Shown here: one piece after another, positions 13,498 through 56,255 of the stretch
Position numbering within the stretch: the first letter of the stretch is position 1
Layout: the number at the start of each line of letters is the position of its first letter
Source of the DNA: an uncultured Alphaproteobacteria bacterium
Lineage (GTDB): Bacteria; Pseudomonadota; Alphaproteobacteria; Rs-D84
Length of the DNA stretch: 64,000 nt
Direction: 5' to 3'
Assembly (NCBI GenBank): GCA_949082785.1
Contig: CARVLU010000003.1
Coordinates: forward strand, 9,133 to 73,132
The notes under the pieces: generated by a model
What the model was told of the DNA's origin: nothing
What the model saw: the letters and a program-made list of their open reading frames with translations, nothing else
Databases searched by the model: none
Made by a program: the position numbers and the translations under genes

Positions 13498-13705
13498 CGA
13501 ATTCATTAGATTGGATTCGGGACGTCGAAAATCCCTTATTAGTCCGGCAGAAATGTCGTTAAAACATTATGGCTTTTGCCATTTCCCCGACACCAGGTCG
13601 GGTTGTTGCGGTTATACAACAGGATTTATCCGAAAACCGCAAGGTCATTGACTAATATGATTTTTCGAACTTCCCGACCACCAATATTTTGGTGGTTTTT
13701 GTTTA
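13498..13705 (+). promoter_or_regulatory. type-1a structured leader RNA (copy A) ending in intrinsic terminator GACCACCAATATTTTGGTGGTTTTT
   Basis: ~85% identical blocks with 22271-22484; 5' segment CGGGACGTCGAAAATC can pair with GATTTTTCGAACTTCCCG adjoining the terminator; conserved internal hairpins. Confidence 0.6.
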
Positions 13706-13736
13706 ACAAAAAAACAAAAGAAGGAAATGAAAAATC

Positions 13737-14192
13737 ATGAAAAAGCTGACAACATGTATTGCACTGGCCGCGATTTGCAGCCCCGCGCTGGGTATCGTCA
13801 CCAATCCCGACCTGTTGGCATGTTTATGCGATGATGCACTGACACCATCGGTCCCCCAGGGTTCATATTGTCCGGACGGAACATACTGTCCATATAAATG
13901 TCCGGGCTGCACCAATATCAATTGGACATCATCATCAACCGGGTATGAATCACGCATAAGGGCCACATGCGATATTTATTCAGGCAACTGTAACAAAACC
14001 ACCGAATATCGTTGCGCAGCCGGATATTACGGCAATACGTTAAATGGCAATTCCGGATGTTCGGCATGCCCCAGGGGCGGCACGTCCCCCGCCGGCAGCA
14101 AGTCCATAACATCATGCTATCTGCCCAATGGGACATCTGGGACCGACAGCACCGGCAGTTATGTTTATACATCAGATTGCTATTACAATTAA
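13737..14192 (+). CDS. secreted cysteine-rich protein, family member (signal peptide MKKLTTCIALAAICSPALG)
   Basis: 151 aa, 18 Cys; YRCAAGYYGN...SGCSACP...SCYLP...GSYVYTSDCYY shared module. Confidence 0.8.
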   Translation: MKKLTTCIALAAICSPALGIVTNPDLLACLCDDALTPSVPQGSYCPDGTYCPYKCPGCTNINWTSSSTGYESRIRATCDIYSGNCNKTTEYRCAAGYYGNTLNGNSGCSACPRGGTSPAGSKSITSCYLPNGTSGTDSTGSYVYTSDCYYN

Positions 14193-14447
14193 TCTGATGC
14201 CGGACAAGGCAAGAAAAAACACATCACCAACAGATAAAATCCCCGGCGAACGCCGGGGTGTCCTGGATTACTTCCGGGTCCCGCCATCGGGTTATCCCCG
14301 GTCGAAATTTTGAATATTGGGACCTTTAGAATGCCAACATTTTTTCGACCGGCCCAAAATGCCAGGGCATTCGGGCAATGGCGGGTTGTCGTTTTTGATG
14401 GTATGGTCATCGCGGTTTTCGAGAGAGAAAATCGTCCCCATCAACAA

Positions 14448-14640
14448 CAAAACCACCTGTGGATAAAGGTGGTTGGAGATTAGCAATCTATTAACAGTAA
14501 ATAGTGTCGATATTCAATATATTCTCGACTCTCCAACCCTGGTTGGATTTTTCATCTTGAAGCAAGACGACTGTTAAGGAGTGGCTAAACTCCACGATGT
14601 GAAATCCACATCGCATTTTAATTATATATAAATATTTTCT
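14448..14640 (-). ncRNA. orphan copy E of type-1b leader element (possible sRNA or decayed gene leader)
   Basis: contains hairpin with conserved loop GAATATATTGAATA, CCAACC/GGTTGGAG/CTCCAACC alternative pairing and terminator CCACCTTTATCCACAGGTGGTTTT; no cys-rich CDS downstream. Confidence 0.45.
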
Positions 14641-14707
14641 TATTTTCCAGTAAATTATAAAAAAAGAAAGGGTTAATCCCCCTTCTTTTCTACTGGTTTT
14701 TCTACAA

Positions 14708-14905
14708 AACAAAACCACCAGAAAATTCAGGTGGTTGGAGATTAGCAACTATTAACAGTAATAGTGCGATATTCAATATATTTTCGACTCTCCAACCATG
14801 TTGGACTTTTACATCATGTCAAAAGACATAACGACTGTTAATAGGTTGCTAAACCCACATCGGCAACACGCCGACACGTAATATATTATATATGTTTTTT
14901 TTGCG
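14708..14905 (-). ncRNA. orphan copy F of type-1b leader element with own TATAAT promoter
   Basis: tandem duplicate of copy E (about 85% identity), conserved loop GAAAATATATTGAATA, terminator CCACCTGAATTTTCTGGTGGTTTT. Confidence 0.45.
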
Positions 14906-15057
14906 AATTCCAGGGATTTTTTATGGACGAATAAAGGCGATTGGGGTCTAAGAACTATCGTTCGATGAACATAGCACGATTTATTTGAATCAAAGATTCT
15001 TATTCATCGCACCCCAACCACATTTATTATACACATTTTTTCTGACAATTGTACGAA

Positions 15058-15545
15058 TTTTCTGGATTACCGGGCGCTTACTCTCCTTTGTCATTGCGAA
15101 CGAAGTGAAGCAATCCAGTCAAATAATGAACTATTCCTTGCTATTCCTGGATTGCCGCAGTCGTTTCACTCCCTCGCAATGACAGGGGTGTTTAATTGCT
15201 CAAAACCGGGCGCTTACTCTCCTTTGTCATTGCGAACGAAGTGAAGCAATCCAGTAAATAGTGAACTATTCCTTGCTATTCCTGGATTGCCACGCGGCGA
15301 CGTTCCGTCTTGCTCGCAATGACAGGGGTGTTTAATTGCTCAAAACCGGACACTTACTCTACTTTGTCATTGCGAACGAAGTGAAGCAATCCAGTGAATA
15401 TGAACCTTGCCGCTTTCCTGGATTGCCACGCGGCGACGTTCCGTCTTGCTCGCAATGACAATGGGGATGCAGCGCCTGGCTTTGTGTCTTGCCTGCTTCA
15501 TCACACTTGTTCATTGCGAGAGAAGCGACACAATCCAGTTAATAA
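15058..15545. repeat. three and a half tandem ~140-bp repeats, each containing an inverted pair TTGTCATTGCGAACGAAGTGAAGCAATCCAG / CTGGATTGCC...CGCAATGACA
   Basis: direct inspection; related units at 43738-43839 and 44336-44545. Confidence 0.85.
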
Positions 15546-22270: not shown

Positions 22271-22484
22271 TGAATCCACGGTTGTGGGTTCGGGACTTCG
22301 AAAATCCCTTATCTGGTCGACATATTGTGTATGTCGTTATTTTGTGCGCGGCGCCTTGCCACGCCCCCCGACATTGGTCGGGTTGTTGCAGTTATACAAC
22401 AGGGGCATCGCCCCAAAGGCTGCAAGGTCATTATCAGATATGATTTTTCGAACTTCCCGACCACCAGATTCTGGTGGTTTTCTT
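22271..22484 (+). promoter_or_regulatory. type-1a structured leader RNA (copy B) ending in terminator GACCACCAGATTCTGGTGGTTTT
   Basis: homologous to 13498-13705 including GGGTTCGGGACTTCGAAAATCCC, GGTCGGGTTGTTGCAGTTATACAACAGG, GCAAGGTCATT, GATTTTTCGAACTTCCCGACCACC. Confidence 0.6.
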
Positions 22485-22497
22485 TGATAACCAAAGG

Positions 22498-23109
22498 ATG
22501 GAAGAAGTGAAGAAAATCAAACAAATAGGTAAAGTCTGGATAATGCTGACGCTGGTCATTATCCCCGGCGTGGCACGGGCGCTGTTGGTGCCACCGGTGG
22601 GCGAATGCGTGGGCGGCACATGCCCCAGCGATGGGCAATATATTGATGGCATCATGTACGGATGCGGGCGTGCAACGGAATGTTACTGCGTCAACAGTGA
22701 CGGCGAAGGAATCAATGTTCCCTGTGGATGCTTTGGCGACGCGGATTGCAAAACCAGCGGTTACGGATGTATTAACGGCCAATGCGCAAAATGCCGCAGT
22801 TGTACAAATTGTACCAGCAGCAACACCTGGGATTCTGTCGCCACCGGGTATCAACGCCGGACCACAAAAACATGTGGGTGTGACGGGACATGCAACACGT
22901 CATATTCTTACCGATGCGCACCCGGATATTTCGGCAACAGTTATAACGGCACATCGGGATGCACGCGTTGCCCGACCGACGGGGGCGTTACCGGGACATC
23001 TGTGGCGGGAACAACCGCACGAACGGGATGCTATGTCGGGGCAAACACGACGGGCCGCGATAATTCCGGGGCGTTTGAATTTACCGGAAATTCTTATTAT
23101 TGTGACTAA
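22498..23109 (+). CDS. secreted cysteine-rich protein, family member (signal peptide MEEVKKIKQIGKVWIMLTLVIIPGVARA)
   Basis: AAGGA SD 5 nt upstream; 28 Cys; CTNCTSSNTWDSVATGYQRR...YRCAPGYFGN...SGCTRCP...GAFEFTGNSYYCD shared module. Confidence 0.8.
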   Translation: MEEVKKIKQIGKVWIMLTLVIIPGVARALLVPPVGECVGGTCPSDGQYIDGIMYGCGRATECYCVNSDGEGINVPCGCFGDADCKTSGYGCINGQCAKCRSCTNCTSSNTWDSVATGYQRRTTKTCGCDGTCNTSYSYRCAPGYFGNSYNGTSGCTRCPTDGGVTGTSVAGTTARTGCYVGANTTGRDNSGAFEFTGNSYYCD

Positions 23110-42813: not shown

Positions 42814-43545
42814 TTACAGAATAACCTGCCCGCCCAGACGCGCGGTCGATGGAATCGGCCCGAACGAAGAACGGCGGCTGACGTAAATATTGCCGGTGAC
42901 GACAAAGTCCCCACAGAATTGCAGCATATTTACATCGCGCAGGAACAGGTGACCGTCAATATACGCATTGCACGGTAAAACATATTTGCGCATGTTTTGC
43001 AAATACACGTTACCCTGGACCCGGATACCATTGGTCAGCATATGGCCATCGCCGCGACCGTTGACGACAACGTCGCCGGTGACCGTGTAACGCATTGCGG
43101 AATTATTTGTCGGACGGGCCACCACACCATCACGACGCAACGGCAAAGTGGTACGTACCGGGCGCGCGGTCACATGACGCGGGGCGGCGGAATTGGTAAC
43201 GGCAACCTGGGGGATGTCGCTGATGACAACGGGCACCGCATCGGCATCGACCACAACAACGGTCTTTTTCCCACCGCGATAAATATCGATAATCAGCATG
43301 GAAAACAAAATGATAATGGACACCAACAGTGTCAGATTCACCATACCAATCAAATCCACAGAACGCAGCCACGCCCAAACGCGCCCGCCCATGCGGCCCA
43401 TCCATTTAAACGGGCGGCAAATCAAATCCCATACGCGGGCCCAAAAACCGGCCGCCGGACGGGAATTTGTACGACGATTGGCGTTGCGTTTTTTGTTTTT
43501 TTCAACGCGACGTGCGGCAATTTTCATCTTTAACTGTTTGAACAT
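42814..43545 (-). CDS. hypothetical membrane-anchored protein (possible beta-helix/bactofilin-like C-terminal region)
   Basis: 243-aa ORF, basic N-terminus, one TM, repetitive V/G/N-rich C-terminal half. Confidence 0.55.
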   Translation of the reverse strand: MFKQLKMKIAARRVEKNKKRNANRRTNSRPAAGFWARVWDLICRPFKWMGRMGGRVWAWLRSVDLIGMVNLTLLVSIIILFSMLIIDIYRGGKKTVVVVDADAVPVVISDIPQVAVTNSAAPRHVTARPVRTTLPLRRDGVVARPTNNSAMRYTVTGDVVVNGRGDGHMLTNGIRVQGNVYLQNMRKYVLPCNAYIDGHLFLRDVNMLQFCGDFVVTGNIYVSRRSSFGPIPSTARLGGQVIL

Positions 43546-43737
43546 AGATTCACCTTTGGGTAAGACTTATGTCCTAAAAATAATATTTGTCAACACGTTT
43601 GTCAAGGATTATTTGCCACAAAAATATATTTTTGTCAAATACGCATCCCGCCCCATCGATGTGTTATGACGCCCCAGGGCATGGCGCGGGGGATTTTTAT
43701 GGACCGGACAGCCCGCGCATCCGCGCAACATTATTGA

Positions 43738-43839
43738 CTGGATTGCTTCGCCGATGGCTCGCAATGACAAAGGAGATGCAGTGCCAGGCAATTCAACATC
43801 CTTGTCATTGCGAGCCACGACAGTGGCGCGGCAATCCAG
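43738..43839. repeat. palindromic repeat unit pair (CTGGATTGCTTCGCC...GCTCGCAATGACAA / TTGTCATTGCGAGC...GCAATCCAG)
   Basis: same family as 15058-15545 and 44336-44545. Confidence 0.8.
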
Positions 43840-43877
43840 TCAATAAACCAACACACCTGGCGTGATATAATTCTTGA

Positions 43878-44063
43878 ACATTCGCGCGGGATGCGATATA
43901 CTGGATTCGCATTGGGAAACCGGTGTAGGCTTAGAAACCTTTTCACATCGTCGGAATCGACGTAAAACTCCAACTGTTGGTTGGGGGGCTGCGAATATAT
44001 TGAATAAGCAGCGCTATCCATGTGAATAGTTTCTAACCTCCAACCGCCCACAATGTTGTCGGG
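43878..44063 (+). promoter_or_regulatory. type-1b leader copy G upstream of XRE-like regulator: TG-extended -10 promoter, hairpin with loop GAATATATTGAATA, terminator CCGCCCACAATGTTGTCGGGCGGTGTTTTTT
   Basis: shares conserved loop and CTCCAAC/GGTTGG/CCTCCAACC alternative-pairing logic with copies C-F. Confidence 0.5.
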
Positions 44064-44097
44064 CGGTGTTTTTTATAACGTAAAAGGAGTTTAAACT

Positions 44098-44325
44098 ATG
44101 TCAAAAATATTAATCGATGCCCAGTATTACGGCAATATCATGCGCTGTGCGCGACAACATTTGAAAATCAGTGCCGGTGACGCGGCGGCATTATTGAAAA
44201 TGACCAAGAAAGATTATCTGAAATGTGAACGTGGCCGCGATTTGTTCGCAGAAGGTACCCTGCGCCGCGTTTTCCATGGTGCGTTTGCGATGTTGATTAT
44301 CAAGCGTGGCCGCGTCGCGTGTTGA
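44098..44325 (+). CDS. small XRE/Cro-like HTH DNA-binding protein (tentative)
   Basis: AAAGGAG SD 7 nt upstream; ISAGDAAALLKMTKKDYLKCERGR resembles HTH_XRE. Confidence 0.55.
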   Translation: MSKILIDAQYYGNIMRCARQHLKISAGDAAALLKMTKKDYLKCERGRDLFAEGTLRRVFHGAFAMLIIKRGRVAC

Positions 44326-44335
44326 CGTGGCGCGT

Positions 44336-44545
44336 TGTCATTGCGAGCAAGTCGCGACGCAGCGTAGCGAAGACGGACGCCGCGTGGCAATCCAGGAAAG
44401 TGACAGCGCGCATTATTCACTGGATTGCTTCGCCGGTGGCTCGCAATGACAAAGAAGATAATGGGCCTGGCTGTTAAACACCCTTGTCATTGCGAGCAAG
44501 TCGCAACGTAGCGTAGCGAAGACGGACGCCGCGTGGCAATCCAGG
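44336..44545. repeat. three palindromic repeat units (TTGTCATTGCGAGCAAGTCGC...GCGTGGCAATCCAGG family)
   Basis: direct inspection. Confidence 0.8.
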
Positions 44546-44565
44546 AAATGACAATGGTGACGAAA

Positions 44566-44591
44566 CAAAAAATCCCGCCGTGGCGGGATTG
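44566..44591 (-). terminator. rho-independent terminator of secG
   Basis: AATCCCGCCACGGCGGGATTTTTT on minus strand. Confidence 0.8.
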
Positions 44592-44596
44592 GTATC

Positions 44597-44914
44597 TTAA
44601 TTTTCCGGAACGGCGGGGGTTGGTGCCGCATTTTCCTGCATAATGATTTCCTGGCGCAAATCGCTTTGGCGGGTGGCCATGTCGGATTTCGACGCAACCA
44701 ATGCCAACGCCGCGCACAGAACAAAGAAAATTGTCGCCAGCCATGCCGTCGCCTTGGTCAGGAAATTCCCGGCCGCCGCCCCCGTCAGCGCACCGCCAAA
44801 CATCGACGCCGCCGATGAACCGGACATGCCGCTGCCTTCGGATTTCTGTAATAAAATCAGGCCCGTCATAAACACGGATACAACAATCAAGCAAACCAAT
44901 AAAATCGAAAACAT
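44597..44914 (-). CDS. secG: preprotein translocase subunit SecG
   Basis: 105 aa, two TM, Gly-rich loop LLQKSEGSGMSGSSAASMFGG. Confidence 0.9.
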   Translation of the reverse strand: MFSILLVCLIVVSVFMTGLILLQKSEGSGMSGSSAASMFGGALTGAAAGNFLTKATAWLATIFFVLCAALALVASKSDMATRQSDLRQEIIMQENAAPTPAVPEN

Positions 44915-48069: not shown

Positions 48070-48094
48070 AAATCCCCGCAATGGGGATTTTTTA
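48066..48094 (+). terminator. rho-independent terminator
   Basis: AAAAATCCCCGCAATGGGGATTTTTT. Confidence 0.85.
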
Positions 48095-48101
48095 ATACTT
48101 C

Positions 48102-48130
48102 TTTACTTTATGCGGTTTATCCCATATAAT
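48102..48130 (+). promoter_or_regulatory. sigma70-type promoter TTTACT-17-TATAAT for leader C
   Basis: hexamers and spacing. Confidence 0.45.
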
Positions 48131-48136
48131 ATTGAT

Positions 48137-48348
48137 GCCCGAACGTGTTGTTTGGGCGGGGCCTCATAACCTCTGATTTAGGCGTCGGAATTCATTCAAA
48201 TGGCGGGCCACGCGCACCCATTTTATGATGCAGACGAAAATAAAACTCCTGATTTTCCGGTCAGGAGGGTTGTGGAATATCAAATACGCAACGCAATTCC
48301 TAAAAATTGTTATGAGCCTCCTGACCACCAATTTGTTGGTGGTTTTTG
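48137..48348 (+). promoter_or_regulatory. type-1b structured leader RNA (copy C) with antiterminator/terminator alternative pairing and terminator CCTGACCACCAATTTGTTGGTGGTTTTT
   Basis: CTCCTGA/TCAGGAGG hairpin; GGTCAGGAGG can alternatively pair CCTCCTGACC overlapping terminator 5' arm; hairpin GTTGTGG-AATATCAAATAC-GCAAC. Confidence 0.6.
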
Positions 48349-48372
48349 CTTTGTACCACAGGAGGTTTTCAT

Positions 48373-48708
48373 ATGAAGCAACATTTAACAGTCGCCCTGG
48401 TGGCCATACCCATTTGGGCGGCGACATTACCCCACGGCATGGCCGCATGCCAAAGCATGATTCAATGCCGGCAATCCGCGGGCAACAATTGCAACTGTTG
48501 TCCGACCGGGACATCCGAAACACAATACACGTGCCCCGACGGATGGGATGCCCGCGGCAGCCAATGTTACCGGGACGCAACCCGTTCATCGGACAGCATC
48601 GGATACACCGAAACCACATACGGCACATGCGCCGGAACGGCGGGCGGCTTTGTCCAATGCTACAAAGCCCAATGCGGAAACCCGATTCCAAACTGCAAGC
48701 TTTTATAA
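48373..48708 (+). CDS. secreted cysteine-rich protein (N-module-type), family member
   Basis: GGAGG SD; signal peptide MKQHLTVALVAIPIWAATLPHGMAA; 14 Cys; ends 14 nt before next gene. Confidence 0.7.
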   Translation: MKQHLTVALVAIPIWAATLPHGMAACQSMIQCRQSAGNNCNCCPTGTSETQYTCPDGWDARGSQCYRDATRSSDSIGYTETTYGTCAGTAGGFVQCYKAQCGNPIPNCKLL

Positions 48709-48722
48709 CGGGGGTACTGGAA

Positions 48723-48998
48723 ATGAAGAAATTTGTATTCTGTGCCATCATGGCATGTATCAGCGGTGCGGCGTACGGGGCATGCACAACGGCCGGCACC
48801 ACATATTACGCGTGCAAGCCGGGGTATTATCTGTCGTCCGGAAATTGTGTCCGGTGCCCGTCATCCAGCGATGGATACGGCACAACAACGGACACCAACA
48901 CCGGCGGGCGCACATCATGCTATGTCCCGTCGGGCACCACCGGCAGCGATGGGTCGGGTTCATATACATACATGGCCAATTGCCATTATGTGGAATAA
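48723..48998 (+). CDS. secreted cysteine-rich protein (C-module-type), family member
   Basis: signal peptide MKKFVFCAIMACISGAAYG; YYACKPGYYLSSGNCVRCP...SCYVP...GSYTYMANCHY shared module. Confidence 0.7.
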   Translation: MKKFVFCAIMACISGAAYGACTTAGTTYYACKPGYYLSSGNCVRCPSSSDGYGTTTDTNTGGRTSCYVPSGTTGSDGSGSYTYMANCHYVE

Positions 48999-49015
48999 CA
49001 CGGCGATCCATAAAA

Positions 49016-49600
49016 CTATTGAATATAATAGCAATCCTGGGTGAACGTGAAACTGCCCGCGGAATCTGCCCCATTGTTCCCGGCCGCCAGATAACATGAT
49101 GTAATCGCGGTGGCCCCGGGGGCGGACGTGGCATTCATATTATGGGCGGGCGAACACTGCGTACATCCCGACGTGCCGTTGGTGGTCGTGCCCCAATAAC
49201 CGGCCGCGCATCTGTATTCCCACGATGTTTTGCATGTATTGCAATCACACCGCCGCATGGCCCGCCGTTCATATCCCGCACCCCCCGCCGACCAAGTGGC
49301 GTCACTGACACAATTGCTGCACCCGGTACAGGATTTTTCACAAACGCTGTATTCATAACTGCATCCGGTTTTGCTGTCATACCCCGTTTTTTCAACCAAA
49401 GTAAAACCGGTGCGACATGTGCGACATGTGGTCACCCGTTCCCCGTTCATGCACCCCAATGTCGTTCCATCGGAACATCCAAATATAATGGGCATCTGGC
49501 CGTCATCCGTGCAATGTTCCCATGAACACACCAGTGCATGCGCGCCGCGCACCAACATCAGATTCATCCCCGCAGCAATAACCGCAGCATATAATTTCAT
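49016..49600 (-). CDS. secreted cysteine-rich protein, family member
   Basis: AAAGGAG SD; signal peptide MKLYAAVIAAGMNLMLVRGAHA; CSNCVSDATWSAGGAGYERR...YRCAAGYWGT...SGCTQCS...GSFTFTQDCYYIQ closely parallels 22498 gene. Confidence 0.8.
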   Translation of the reverse strand: MKLYAAVIAAGMNLMLVRGAHALVCSWEHCTDDGQMPIIFGCSDGTTLGCMNGERVTTCRTCRTGFTLVEKTGYDSKTGCSYEYSVCEKSCTGCSNCVSDATWSAGGAGYERRAMRRCDCNTCKTSWEYRCAAGYWGTTTNGTSGCTQCSPAHNMNATSAPGATAITSCYLAAGNNGADSAGSFTFTQDCYYIQ

Positions 49601-49604
49601 TCAA

Positions 49605-49800
49605 ACACTCCTTTTTTCTTCAACGAATGAAAAAGCCACCAAAATTCAGGTGGCAGGAGGTTCGAAACTATCTGTAAAAAATAGCAGTGTGCTTTCAATA
49701 TATAACACACTCCCCCTGCCCGCATAAAGACAGGGTCGCTTTACGTCCGCCGACGTTTACAGAAGGGTTTCGACGCCCCGACATCGGAATTCCCGATGCT
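49605..49800 (-). promoter_or_regulatory. type-1b leader RNA copy D (minus strand) with terminator GCCACCTGAATTTTGGTGGCTTTTT
   Basis: 5' CGGGAATTCCGATGTCGGGGCGTCGAAACCC resembles copies A/B; hairpin GTGTG-TTATATATTGAAAG-CACAC; AGTTTCGAACCTCCTGCCACC before terminator. Confidence 0.55.
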
Positions 49801-49840
49801 GCTGTAATTATGTCACAATTATAAAAAATTTACCACATTT

Positions 49841-55616: not shown

Positions 55617-56255
55617 TTACAAACCAAATCTGTACGCCAGCCCCAGGTATAATTGCGTGGCATCAACCTTGGACACGCCGCGGGCATGTTCCACACGACC
55701 AAAATTGATGTATTTAAACCCAACATCCAAATCAATACGCGAATTCAGGTGAAACAACACACCGACCATCACCTGGTACGACAAATCAAAGGCATTATCC
55801 AAATCCCCGTCAATTTCGCCCCAAATCCCGGTTAAACCCAATCCGGCCGCCGCATACGGCGCCACCGCATTGTCAAAATCCCATAACAGATAGGCATTCA
55901 GCATATTCGCCCAAATATCATATTCAAAATTGGTATCGTATTTGGTGTACTGGGCCCCCATGTACATTGTTTCGTATTCCACCCGCAGAAAATTGGTTAA
56001 ATTATTGCCAACCGTGGTACCGAAACCGAAATTATCTTTCTTGTACTTTTCCTTGTGCCCATTGGACAGGTTATATGAATACGCGGCATGTTCGTTTTTA
56101 TAGACACGCACGCCGGTGTAATTGTCGCGCGTGGGCGACCCGCAATCACAGACCGGGCATTCTGGATACACAGTCACATCATAATCGATATATTCATTCG
56201 CCATGGCCCCCGTGGCGGTCATGCACATTAAAAACAAAGCCAGAAATTTTTTCAT
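55617..56255 (-). CDS. outer membrane beta-barrel protein (OmpA-like/OMP_b-brl family)
   Basis: signal peptide MKKFLALFLMCMTATGAMA, alternating amphipathic strands, C-terminal LGLAYRFGL. Confidence 0.65.
   Translation of the reverse strand: MKKFLALFLMCMTATGAMANEYIDYDVTVYPECPVCDCGSPTRDNYTGVRVYKNEHAAYSYNLSNGHKEKYKKDNFGFGTTVGNNLTNFLRVEYETMYMGAQYTKYDTNFEYDIWANMLNAYLLWDFDNAVAPYAAAGLGLTGIWGEIDGDLDNAFDLSYQVMVGVLFHLNSRIDLDVGFKYINFGRVEHARGVSKVDATQLYLGLAYRFGL

What the first reader, a model, noticed from the sequence alone, without database searches (positions are those of the whole stretch)
43878..44325. XRE-like regulator preceded by a leader of the same family that controls the cysteine-rich genes, flanked on both sides by palindromic repeats
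The 75-aa HTH protein at 44098-44325 has a strong AAAGGAG SD.

Its 5' region carries a TG-extended -10 promoter and the hairpin with the conserved GAATATATTGAATA loop. It also has the GGTTGG/CCTCCAACC alternative pairing and a terminator (CCGCCC...GGGCGG-T8).

This ties a putative transcription factor to the leader family. The regulator may act on the conserved loop/operator, or may be co-regulated with the secreted family.
Basis: inference. Interest (0 to 1): 0.55.

Follow-up and report, generated by a model that had tools for sequence, protein, structure and literature searches.

The report
Attenuator leader gating a small XRE gene
A 75-residue helix-turn-helix gene sits behind a roughly 165-nt leader RNA that can fold as a terminator or an antiterminator; the same uncatalogued leader family also precedes cysteine-rich secreted-protein genes in uncultured gut Alphaproteobacteria, so it marks a lineage-specific regulon whose trigger is unknown.

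Summary
Window 43874-44325 is one cassette: a sigma-70-like promoter, a structured leader of about 165 nt ending in an intrinsic terminator, a Shine-Dalgarno site and a 75-aa XRE-like ORF.

All 34 distinct close copies examined (up to about 7 per contig, at least 16 in one MAG) have the leader directly upstream. So do 4 more divergent homologues, three of them in two other lineages. The 31 distinct ORFs are intact, with dN/dS about 0.12.

Covariation supports two mutually exclusive leader folds. The terminator fold has long-range helices and an anti-antiterminator hairpin. The antiterminator fold pairs GGUUGGGGG with CCUCCAACC and takes 3 nt of the terminator stem. The terminator fold is the energy minimum.

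Divergent copies of the leader precede four cysteine-rich secreted-protein genes in this window, and three copies are stand-alone. There is no conserved leader peptide. No Rfam family reaches threshold; sRNA-Xcc1 resembles it at about 31 bits. No plasmid, phage or viral match was found.

The flanking 116-nt palindromes are real, and 84% of their core motifs in the fetched loci lie next to HTH units.

The signal that flips the leader, the protein's target and the role of the palindromes are unknown. That the protein binds the leader loop is untested.

The parts
43729..43846 (.). Upstream REP-like palindromic element, a 116-nt hairpin (core GTCATTGCGAG ... GGCAATCCAG)
   Evidence: Inverted repeats I2 and I5. 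DNA fold -42 kcal/mol, z = -9.1. A homologous element lies just upstream of the promoter in 23 of 30 paralogous units.
43863..43871 (+).
   Evidence: Read directly. This or a related -10-like variant occurs in only about 5 of 30 paralogues.
43874..43902 (+). Conserved sigma-70-like promoter TTGAAC-N17-TATACT, with a conserved spacer ATTCGCG-N4-ATGCGA
   Evidence: Promoter scan. Nearly invariant in 19 and 34 aligned paralogues. The spacer motif is unique in the window.
43909..43926 (+). H1: 5'-terminal hairpin GCAUUGG-GAAA-CCGGUGU
   Evidence: 99.6% of cells paired in 34 sequences. Unique in the window. The equivalent hairpin in other subfamilies has a different sequence.
43927..43948 (+). 5' strands of long-range helices P1 (AGG, UAGAAAC) and P1b (UUCACAU)
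   Evidence: They pair with 44020-44039. Compensatory changes occur at 5 of 7 and 6 of 7 pairs.
43949..43962 (+). H3 hairpin CGUC-GGAAUC-GACG
   Evidence: 96% paired with 12 double changes at the closing pair. Its length varies between subfamilies, and it is absent in the distant lineages.
43968..43974 (+). Strand U (CUCCAAC): pairs with strand M to form the anti-antiterminator hairpin
   Evidence: 98.7% paired. It changes in step with M and D between subfamilies.
43979..43987 (+). Strand M (GGUUGGGGG): the switch strand, which pairs with either U or D
   Evidence: Both duplexes are possible in 25 of 25 family members. 4 of 9 M:D pairs show compensatory changes across subfamilies.
43988..44012 (+). 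Ha hairpin with loop GAAUAUAUUGAAUAA
   Evidence: 5 of 5 stem pairs compensatory, 100% paired. The loop motif is kept in the distant lineages.
44014..44029 (+). Hb hairpin CUAU...AUAG (antiterminator fold only); its loop AUGUGAA is the 3' strand of P1b in the terminator fold
   Evidence: The stem changes to CAAUU/AAUUG and CGAUA/UAUCG in other subfamilies. The loop covaries with 43942-43948.
44029..44039 (+). 3' strand of P1 (GUUUCUA, CCU)
44037..44045 (+). Strand D (CCUCCAACC): 3' strand of the antiterminator; overlaps P1 by CCU and the terminator by ACC
44043..44074 (+). Intrinsic terminator ACCGCCC...GGGCGGU followed by GUUUUUU
   Evidence: G-C to A-U swap in 18 versus 16 of 34 sequences. 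It is part of the minimum-free-energy fold.
44083..44089 (+). Shine-Dalgarno site AAAGGAG
   Evidence: Conserved in the aligned paralogues.
44098..44325 (+). 75-aa XRE-like helix-turn-helix ORF
   Evidence: 31 distinct intact paralogous ORFs, median dN/dS 0.12. HTH_31 E = 0.005, below the Pfam cut-off. PHROG 955 E = 3.6e-5. The model's best matches are XRE-family proteins, TM 0.55-0.63.
44335..44549 (.). Downstream REP-like palindromic elements, about 1.5 to 2 copies
   Evidence: Direct repeats D1-D3 and inverted repeats I4, I9, I11. About half of the paralogous units have a REP element after the gene.

Best explanation
What it is: window 43874-44325 is one copy of a multi-copy chromosomal cassette. 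A small XRE-like DNA-binding protein gene is placed under a transcription-attenuating leader RNA.

Shown:
- A conserved promoter starts an RNA whose first 165 nt can fold in two mutually exclusive ways.
- Fold T (terminator): a 5' hairpin H1; long-range helices P1 and P1b that close a multi-helix junction holding H3, the hairpin formed by strands U and M, and Ha; then a 7-bp terminator followed by a U tract.
- Fold A (antiterminator): strand M (GGUUGGGGG) leaves U and pairs with strand D (CCUCCAACC). This encloses Ha and a new hairpin Hb, removes the 3' strand of P1 and takes 3 nt of the terminator stem.
- Both folds are supported by compensatory changes.
- Fold T is the energy minimum, so the default outcome is a terminated RNA of about 165 nt.
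- The ORF starts 24 nt after the U tract, with no room for its own promoter.

Inferred:
- The protein is made only when the antiterminator wins.
- The same switch gates the cysteine-rich secreted-protein genes, so the two gene classes answer to one signal.
- The signal is unknown. My best guess is a trans-acting factor (a protein or a small ligand) that acts on the junction, Ha or Hb during transcription.
- The HTH protein is most likely an output of the switch that binds DNA. Its own conserved promoter spacer is a candidate operator. Its variable residues lie on the expected DNA-contact surface, so paralogues may have different targets.
For: Linkage:
- 34 of 34 distinct close copies and 4 of 4 more divergent homologues with upstream sequence carry the leader.

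Real gene:
- 31 distinct intact ORFs, dN/dS 0.12, dS 1.25.

Fold T:
- 95% of cells paired against about 40% for slid controls.
- 184 doubly changed cells against 56 in shuffles.
- P1 has 5 of 7 and P1b 6 of 7 compensatory pairs. RNAalifold found these helices unprompted.
- The unconstrained minimum-energy fold gives the same architecture in 20 of 21 divergent non-HTH copies.

Fold A:
- M pairs with both U and D in 25 of 25 members.
- The three strands change together between subfamilies: GGUCAGGAGG with CCUCCUGACC, GGCAGGGGG with CCUCCUGCC, GGUUGGAGU with ACUCCAACC, GGUUGGGGG with CCCCCAACC.
- The Hb stem also covaries.

Energies and terminator:
- Fold T -65.0 kcal/mol, which is the MFE; fold A -52.6 kcal/mol.
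- The terminator stem shows a G-C to A-U swap.

Shared leader:
- It precedes the Cys-rich genes at 13737, 22474, about 48373 and 49600(-).

Protein:
- XRE-like fold.
- Variable positions cluster at 26-27, 36-38, 41-42 and 47-54.
Against: - No transcript data exist, so termination and read-through are predictions.
- The antiterminator overlaps the terminator stem by only 3 nt (ACC). It leaves GCCC/GGGC able to pair, so relief of termination might be partial.
- Within the HTH-type copies the M:D helix never varies. Its support comes from other subfamilies, and it rests partly on per-sequence duplex calculations, because the alignment is shifted by a compensating indel.
- Stand-alone copies with their own promoter and terminator and no downstream gene (B and C) show that the RNA can exist without a cis target.
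- The effector is a guess.
- The protein model has only moderate confidence (pLDDT 65.6), and the Pfam score is below the curated cut-off.
Confidence: 0.65

Rival explanations
1. One reading: the 75-aa protein is itself the trans-acting factor of the leader family. It binds the conserved Ha loop or the Hb element in the RNA. It thereby sets read-through of its own gene (autoregulation) and of all the cysteine-rich genes.
For: - The leader-HTH linkage is kept in distant lineages, where the proteins are clearly more divergent (profile E-values 1e-12 to 2e-9).
- The Ha loop motif GAAUAU..AAUAA is kept there as well.
- The protein has many invariant basic residues: R16, R19, K34, R45, R56, R57 and R70.
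- With many copies of both partners, a titration circuit is conceivable.
Against: - Every structural match is to a dsDNA-binding XRE protein.
- The variable residues sit on the recognition surface while the Ha loop is constant. That is the opposite of what co-evolving partners would show.
- No test of binding is possible with these tools.
- A shared leader is equally well explained by co-regulation.
Confidence: 0.15
2. The leader is a classical metabolite or ion riboswitch. The junction closed by P1 and P1b is an aptamer. Bound ligand stabilises P1 and hence the terminator (an OFF switch); without ligand, M pairs with D.
For: - The layout matches: a closing helix whose 3' strand is shared with the expression platform, a multi-helix junction, and conserved unpaired stretches (UAAAA after H3, CRCUAU, AUAG) in fold T.
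- Many copies occur per genome, some in tandem.
Against: - Few nucleotides are invariant across subfamilies outside the switch strands and the Ha loop.
- H3 can be absent or carry insertions of several tens of nucleotides.
- The regulated genes (secreted Cys-rich proteins and a small regulator) point to no metabolite.
- The family has been seen only in a few related uncultured Alphaproteobacteria.
- No Rfam riboswitch matches.
Confidence: 0.2
3. The 165-nt RNA is mainly a trans-acting small RNA that ends at its terminator, as claimed for sRNA-Xcc1. The ORF behind it is expressed only by leakage, and the alternative pairing serves RNA stability or target choice rather than gene control in cis.
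For: - Stand-alone copies have their own TATAAT promoter and terminator and no ORF (window B and C; L017, L053).
- Termination is the energetic default.
- A 5'-terminal hairpin, an A/U-rich loop and a U tail are typical features of a stable sRNA.
Against: - In 38 of 38 HTH units and in all Cys-rich units, an ORF with a good SD follows within 18-60 nt, with no promoter of its own.
- Three-strand covariation that keeps both pairings is what a cis switch needs and is not needed for a plain sRNA.
Confidence: 0.15
4. The cassette is a selfish or mobilised unit. The promoter, leader and HTH gene are carried between REP-like palindromes and spread through the genome by a REP-associated transposase or by recombination. 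The protein may bind the palindromes.
For: - 134 of 160 REP core motifs lie within -700 to +450 of an HTH gene, a zone covering 14% of the sequence.
- 23 of 30 units have a REP element just upstream of the promoter, and many have one after the gene.
- The same core lies upstream of distant homologues.
- Copies sit between unrelated housekeeping genes. The ligA-comM gap holds an HTH unit in one genome and Cys-rich units in this window.
Against: - The paralogues are old (dS about 1.25) and under purifying selection, so this is not a recent burst.
- 7 of 30 units have no upstream REP, and the REP-to-unit distance varies.
- No transposase was seen next to the units.
- No plasmid, phage or viral relatives were found.
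- Long hairpins upstream of a promoter may simply act as insulators or terminators for the neighbouring gene.
Confidence: 0.1

Closest known systems
Terminator/antiterminator attenuators and riboswitch expression platforms (three-strand logic as in the trp leader regions 1:2, 2:3, 3:4; PyrR-, T-box- and riboswitch-controlled leaders)
   Same: - An intrinsic terminator whose 5' arm is shared with an antiterminator.
- The antiterminator's 5' strand can instead be held in an upstream anti-antiterminator hairpin.
- The leader is located between the promoter and the SD of the controlled gene.
- Both pairings are kept by covariation.
   Different: - No conserved leader peptide.
- No T-box, PyrR-site or known riboswitch signature, and no Rfam match.
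- The effector is unknown.
- The anti-antiterminator works together with an 18-bp long-range helix pair.
- The same leader serves three uses: regulator genes, secreted-protein genes and stand-alone RNAs. It occurs at 8 copies in 64 kb.
sRNA-Xcc1 (Rfam RF02221)
   Same: - An outer G-rich/C-rich stem enclosing two hairpins, followed by C-rich sequence and U residues.
- The first hairpin carries an AAUA...AAUAA motif.
- Window copies F and D each score about 31 bits against the family model in exactly the antiterminator fold.
- True members also lie just upstream of small genes in the same orientation: symE in Xanthomonas integron cassettes (bioRxiv 10.1101/2025.06.18.660453) and a KilA-N gene on a Kingella plasmid.
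   Different: - The scores are far below the gathering score of 53 bits.
- Other family members did not reappear in a larger search.
- A model of this leader family gives a true sRNA-Xcc1 member only 8 bits.
- sRNA-Xcc1 is carried on integrons, plasmids and transposons; this family is chromosomal, with no plasmid or phage match.
- No 5' domain or long-range helix is described for sRNA-Xcc1.
Small single-domain XRE-family regulators (restriction-modification controller C proteins such as C.AhdI and C.BclI; antitoxins HipB and HigA2; ClgR; P22 c2 N-terminal domain)
   Same: - Size of about 75 aa.
- A predicted helical HTH fold.
- These proteins are the best structural matches, with TM 0.55-0.63.
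- A conserved sequence in the protein's own promoter spacer suggests autoregulation, as in C proteins.
   Different: - No partner gene is adjacent: no restriction-modification system and no toxin. The neighbours are housekeeping genes.
- There are at least 16 paralogues per genome.
- Each is preceded by an attenuator leader.
- Sequence similarity to Pfam HTH_31 is below the cut-off.
REP, BIME and REPIN elements, Correia elements and Rickettsia palindromic elements (from general knowledge)
   Same: - Extragenic palindromes of about 116 nt.
- Multi-copy, often in tandem arrays.
- They fold into long hairpins.
   Different: - They are strongly concentrated around one gene family.
- No associated transposase was identified here.

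Membership tests
sRNA-Xcc1 (RF02221) | Covariance-model score at or above the gathering score (53 bits) | tested here: not met
   31.5 bits for copy F and 30.8 bits for copy D. Nothing was found at gathering threshold in the whole window. The hits were not recovered in L045, L046, L048 or L017.
sRNA-Xcc1 (RF02221) | Reciprocal recognition: a true member is recognised by a model of this leader family | tested here: not met
   The Kingella plasmid member scores 56.4 bits with Rfam but only 8.1 bits, E = 0.44, with model R1.
sRNA-Xcc1 (RF02221) | Outer stem enclosing two hairpins, with an AAUA...AAUAA motif in the first hairpin | tested here: met
   Seen in the alignments to the family consensus. 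This is a resemblance, not proof of common descent.
Intrinsic-terminator attenuator (terminator / antiterminator / anti-antiterminator) | G+C-rich hairpin followed by a U tract, between the promoter and the gene | tested here: met
   44043-44074. A compensatory G-C to A-U change occurs in the stem.
Intrinsic-terminator attenuator (terminator / antiterminator / anti-antiterminator) | An alternative helix that shares nucleotides with the terminator and is conserved by covariation | tested here: met
   M:D shares ACC with the terminator. 4 of 9 pairs are compensatory across subfamilies, and 25 of 25 members can form the helix. The overlap is only 3 nt.
Intrinsic-terminator attenuator (terminator / antiterminator / anti-antiterminator) | An upstream strand that competes for the antiterminator's 5' strand | tested here: met
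   The U:M hairpin is 98.7% paired, and U changes in step with M and D.
Intrinsic-terminator attenuator (terminator / antiterminator / anti-antiterminator) | Condition-dependent termination and read-through in the cell | not testable with these tools
   No transcript data are available for these uncultured bacteria.
Ribosome-mediated attenuation (leader-peptide type) | A conserved short ORF with a start signal that runs into the first switch strand | tested here: not met
   The window copy has no such ORF. Short ATG ORFs are present in some copies, absent in about one third, and vary in length and frame.
Riboswitch | A conserved ligand pocket (many invariant unpaired nucleotides) and a defined ligand | tested here: inconclusive
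   Some conserved unpaired stretches exist within the HTH type, but few are invariant across subfamilies. The ligand cannot be tested.
XRE / Cro-C1-type HTH proteins (Pfam HTH_3, HTH_31) | Pfam model score above the curated cut-off | tested here: not met
   HTH_31 scores 17.5 bits against a cut-off of 27, E = 0.005. NCBIfam gives no match.
XRE / Cro-C1-type HTH proteins (Pfam HTH_3, HTH_31) | Helical HTH fold superimposable on solved XRE domains | tested here: inconclusive
   Model pLDDT is 65.6. All top PDB matches are XRE proteins with TM 0.55-0.63, but E is at least 0.018 and rmsd is 2-7 Å. Supporting sequence hits: PHROG 955 and an MBF1-like chain.
XRE / Cro-C1-type HTH proteins (Pfam HTH_3, HTH_31) | Sequence-specific DNA binding | not testable with these tools
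   This needs EMSA or footprinting.
Type II antitoxin (HipB / HigA-like) or restriction-modification controller protein | An adjacent toxin gene or restriction-modification genes in the same operon | tested here: not met
   The neighbours are secG, rnc, lepB, comM, ligA, leuS, tig and others in the loci examined. PADLOC gives no match.
REP / REPIN-type extragenic palindromes | Multi-copy extragenic imperfect palindromes forming long hairpins | tested here: met
REP / REPIN-type extragenic palindromes | An associated RAYT-type transposase in the genome | not tested
   Whole genomes could not be scanned.

The most novel reading that the evidence does not exclude
The leader, the 75-aa proteins and the palindromes form one lineage-specific circuit. 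Dozens of near-identical attenuators default to termination. The diversified HTH paralogues bind leader RNA, the palindrome arrays or paralogue-specific promoters. They decide which few of the many cysteine-rich surface-protein genes are read through, giving variable or mutually exclusive surface expression in a gut symbiont.
Probability: 0.1. Interest if true: 0.8.

Novelty: new member of a known kind. Interest (0 to 1): 0.58.

Why it matters
- It defines a well-supported structured leader RNA family that is absent from Rfam. The family has two covariation-backed alternative folds and occurs at high copy number: 8 copies in this 64-kb window.
- It occurs in uncultured gut Alphaproteobacteria for which no regulatory biology is known.
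- It links two uncharacterised gene families, a large set of cysteine-rich secreted proteins and a multi-copy small XRE-like protein, into one putative regulon. This gives a concrete handle (one switch, one signal) for asking how these symbionts control their surface or secreted repertoire.
- The resemblance to sRNA-Xcc1 suggests that RNA may also act as a cis leader of the small gene behind it. sRNA-Xcc1 has been reported as a trans-acting sRNA, and its mechanism is, as far as I know, unresolved.

Tried and rejected
1. Leader peptide / ribosome-mediated attenuation. No conserved ORF was found.
2. Membership of a known RNA family. Nothing reached gathering threshold. Only sRNA-Xcc1 appeared at about 31 bits, and the reciprocal test failed.
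3. Phage, plasmid or viral origin. None was found, and PADLOC gave no match.
4. The TG-extended -10 as the family's promoter. It is not conserved.
5. The HTH-specific promoter spacer or H1 as an operator shared with the cysteine-rich genes. Both motifs are unique to the HTH unit in the window.
6. My interim idea that the HTH family is much narrower than the leader family, and is therefore dispensable for it. A profile search found about 40 more distant small homologues, and those I could inspect also carry the leader.
7. Correlation by eye between the paralogue's recognition-helix variant and its own leader's Ha loop or P1 sequence. I saw none.
8. The fourth GAATATATTGAATA-like hit at 56182. 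It lies in coding sequence and is chance.
9. Literature search for the cysteine-rich family or this leader. Nothing relevant was found. Pfam does not recognise the cysteine-rich proteins.
Full report
**1. What is at the coordinates**

Reading 43500-44700 and locating each element gives this order:
- a 116-nt palindromic element at 43729-43846;
- TGATATAAT at 43863-43871;
- TTGAAC-N17-TATACT at 43874-43902;
- a leader from about 43909 to 44074;
- AAAGGAG at 44083-44089;
- an ATG-to-TGA ORF of 75 codons at 44098-44325;
- more palindromic elements at 44335-44549.

GAATATATTGAATA with at most 2 mismatches occurs 4 times against 0.69 expected. GGTTGG-N40-70-CCAACC occurs 4 times against 0.37 expected, reached by 0 of 100 shuffles. 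The leader folds better than shuffles, z = -3.8.

The TG-extended -10 lies just before the stated start and is not conserved. The conserved promoter is TTGAAC-N17-TATACT.

**2. The ORF is a real gene and belongs to a multi-copy family**

- A search of 5.8 billion proteins found only 26 relatives, all at least 68% identical and nearly all 75 aa. They come from uncultured gut Alphaproteobacteria.
- One MAG (JAIDWS01) holds at least 16 copies. Single metagenome contigs hold about 7 each.
- 31 distinct copies are all intact. Median dN/dS is 0.12 at dS 1.25, so these are old paralogues under purifying selection.
- The copies sit between unrelated housekeeping genes.
- The window copy is syntenic with one in JAIDWS01 (secG, the HTH gene, a 243-aa ORF, then a penicillin-binding protein).
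- The protein scores weakly against HTH_31 (E = 0.005, below cut-off), against a phage HTH family and against an MBF1-like chain.
- A model of moderate confidence has four helices. Its best solved-structure matches are all XRE-family proteins: HipB, ClgR, controller proteins, HigA2 and P22 c2, with TM 0.55-0.63.
- Variable residues cluster at the start of helix 2, the N-terminal half of helix 3 and the following loop. The core and the last helix are constant.
- No toxin or restriction-modification partner gene is adjacent, and PADLOC gives no match.

**3. The leader is always there**

- An HMM of the leader found it 18-30 nt upstream of every one of 34 distinct close copies.
- An exhaustive profile search found about 40 further small homologues of 72-86 aa.
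- Four of them were looked up. One locus (L052) is cut off just upstream of the gene. The other four loci (L049, L053, L054, L055) all have the leader directly upstream.
  - One homologue is a divergent paralogue in JAIDWS01.
  - Two are from two other assemblies.
  - Model R1 scores these leaders 80-121 bits, and one locus has two leaders in tandem.

**4. The leader has two conserved, mutually exclusive folds**

RNAalifold on 19 copies found, unprompted, long-range helices joining 43927-43948 to 44020-44039.

Terminator fold, counted on 34 copies:

| Measure | Observed | Control |
|---|---|---|
| Cells paired | 95% | about 40% when partners are slid |
| Doubly changed cells | 184 | 56 in shuffles |
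| Compensatory pairs, P1 | 5 of 7 | |
| Compensatory pairs, P1b | 6 of 7 | |
| Compensatory pairs, Ha | 5 of 5 | |

The terminator stem also shows a G-C to A-U swap.

Antiterminator fold (GGUUGGGGG with CCUCCAACC):
- The helix is invariant within the HTH type.
- In the other subfamilies the middle strand, its upstream partner and its downstream partner change together. Examples are GGUCAGGAGG with CCUCCUGACC, GGCAGGGGG with CCUCCUGCC, GGUUGGAGU with ACUCCAACC, and GGUUGGGGG with CCCCCAACC.
- All 25 members tested can form both duplexes.
- 4 of 9 pairs are compensatory, even in an alignment shifted by a compensating indel.
- The Hb stem also covaries (CUAU/AUAG, CAAUU/AAUUG, CGAUA/UAUCG).

The antiterminator's 3' strand overlaps P1 by CCU and the terminator by ACC.

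For the window copy the terminator fold is the energy minimum, -65.0 kcal/mol against -52.6 for the antiterminator fold. 20 of 21 divergent copies fold to the same architecture without constraints. No conserved leader peptide exists.

**5. The same leader serves other genes**

A covariance model of the 3' two-thirds (R1), run without filters on the window, found eight copies:

| Copy | Position | Bits | What follows |
|---|---|---|---|
| F | this finding | 110 | 75-aa HTH ORF |
| B | 14702-14818 (-) | 94 | nothing: own promoter and terminator, no ORF |
| C | 14440-14559 (-) | 84 | nothing: own promoter and terminator, no ORF |
| D | 49623-49750 (-) | 80 | Cys-rich ORF 49600-49016 (-) |
| E | 48230-48355 (+) | 78 | Cys-rich ORF, about 48373-48708 |
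| A (degenerate) | 14919-15049 (-) | 31 | nothing |
| G | 13568-13708 (+) | 27 | Cys-rich ORF 13737-14192 |
| H | 22350-22490 (+) | 23 | Cys-rich ORF 22474-23109 |

- D, E, G and H each precede a signal-peptide, cysteine-rich ORF.
- The cysteine-rich family has about 65 database relatives and no Pfam domain.
- In three other MAG loci its members also carry the leader.

**6. Comparison with known RNAs**

- No Rfam family reaches its threshold.
- Copies F and D each score about 31 bits against sRNA-Xcc1 (gathering score 53) in exactly the antiterminator fold.
- The shared features are the G-rich outer stem, two inner hairpins and an AAUA...AAUAA motif in the first hairpin.
- The hit did not recur in a larger search of other copies.
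- A true sRNA-Xcc1 on a Kingella plasmid scores 56.4 bits with Rfam but only 8 bits with R1.
- I therefore do not file the leader under sRNA-Xcc1.
- It is still notable that true members also lie directly upstream of small genes in the same orientation: symE in Xanthomonas cassettes (10.1101/2025.06.18.660453) and a KilA-N gene here.
- There is no similarity to plasmids, phages or viral contigs.

**7. The palindromes**

- The core GTCATTGCGAG occurs 12 times in the window, all in two clusters: 43758-44496 and 15090-15520. Both clusters are next to leader copies.
- Across 367 kb of related loci, 134 of 160 core motifs lie within -700 to +450 of an HTH gene, a zone making up 14% of the sequence. 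The hits are not independent, because arrays are tandem.
- 23 of 30 units have an element ending just before a conserved ACACACC that marks the unit's 5' edge. About half have one after the gene.
- The same core lies upstream of distant homologues in another lineage.
- I cannot say whether these are operator arrays, insulators or traces of mobilisation.

**8. Mechanism, with what is shown and what is inferred**

Shown:
- the promoter, leader, terminator, SD and ORF layout;
- the two covarying folds;
- the terminator fold as the energetic default;
- the shared leader in front of two gene classes;
- the linkage kept in relatives.

Inferred:
- The protein is produced only on read-through.
- One signal co-regulates the HTH genes and the secreted proteins.
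- The signal acts during transcription on the junction, Ha or Hb.
- The protein binds DNA, perhaps its own promoter spacer, which is conserved well beyond what a promoter needs and is unique in the window.

Unknown:
- the effector;
- the protein's targets;
- the role of the stand-alone copies and of the palindromes.

**9. Verdict**

The finding is real. It is a new family of a known kind of device, a terminator/antiterminator leader, with unusual copy number and gene associations. The proposal that the regulator binds the leader loop remains speculation.

Noticed in passing
window 14440-15049 (-): Three leader-family copies lie in tandem with no ORF behind them. B (14702-14818) and C (14440-14559) each have their own TATAAT promoter and terminator. 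A (14919-15049) is degenerate. They look like stand-alone small RNA genes, and a REP array lies just upstream at 15090-15520.
   Followed up: partly
window 13568-14192 (+), 22350-23109 (+), 48230-48708 (+), 49799-49016 (-): Four divergent leader copies each precede a signal-peptide, cysteine-rich protein gene. The proteins share a C-terminal motif of the form YRCAAGYYG..NGTSGC..CP...SCY...G...D..G.Y.......YY. Pfam gives no significant match for this family (one sub-cut-off DUF6132 hit, E = 0.034), and it has about 65 database relatives.
   Followed up: partly
window 48720-48998 (+): A further cysteine-rich ORF (MKKFVFCAIMACISGAAYG...) directly follows the leader-E gene with no leader of its own. 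It may be the second gene of that unit.
   Followed up: no
window 48070-49840, compared with L001 9746-10293: The gap between ligA and comM holds two convergent leader plus Cys-rich units in this genome, but a leader plus HTH unit in MAG JAIDWS01. This gap looks like a hot spot where leader-carrying units are exchanged.
   Followed up: partly
window 43729-43846, 44335-44549, 15090-15520; L007-L055: The REP-like 116-nt palindromes are concentrated around the HTH units (84% of core motifs in 14% of the sequence). They form tandem arrays of up to about 7 copies with a period near 125 nt upstream of some units, for example L017.
   Followed up: partly
L053 2101-2479: In a distant lineage two leader copies lie in tandem upstream of one HTH homologue. 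These leaders lack hairpin H3.
   Followed up: no
L056 1456-1576 (Kingella potus plasmid NZ_CP091517.1): A bona fide sRNA-Xcc1 (56.4 bits) lies 38 nt upstream of a KilA-N domain gene in the same orientation. Together with the reported position upstream of symE, this suggests sRNA-Xcc1 may itself be a cis leader.
   Followed up: partly
protein P0015: One 75-aa homologue is named 'CRISPR-associated endonuclease Cas1' in NCBI. This is almost certainly a mis-annotation, possibly caused by the neighbouring tandem palindromes being read as a CRISPR array.
   Followed up: no
L049 3264-3692 (-), L050, L051: The divergent 78-aa paralogue P0092 is followed, convergently, by a 138-142-aa protein with a Pfam HTH_3 domain. 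This is the only case seen of a second HTH gene next to a unit.
   Followed up: no
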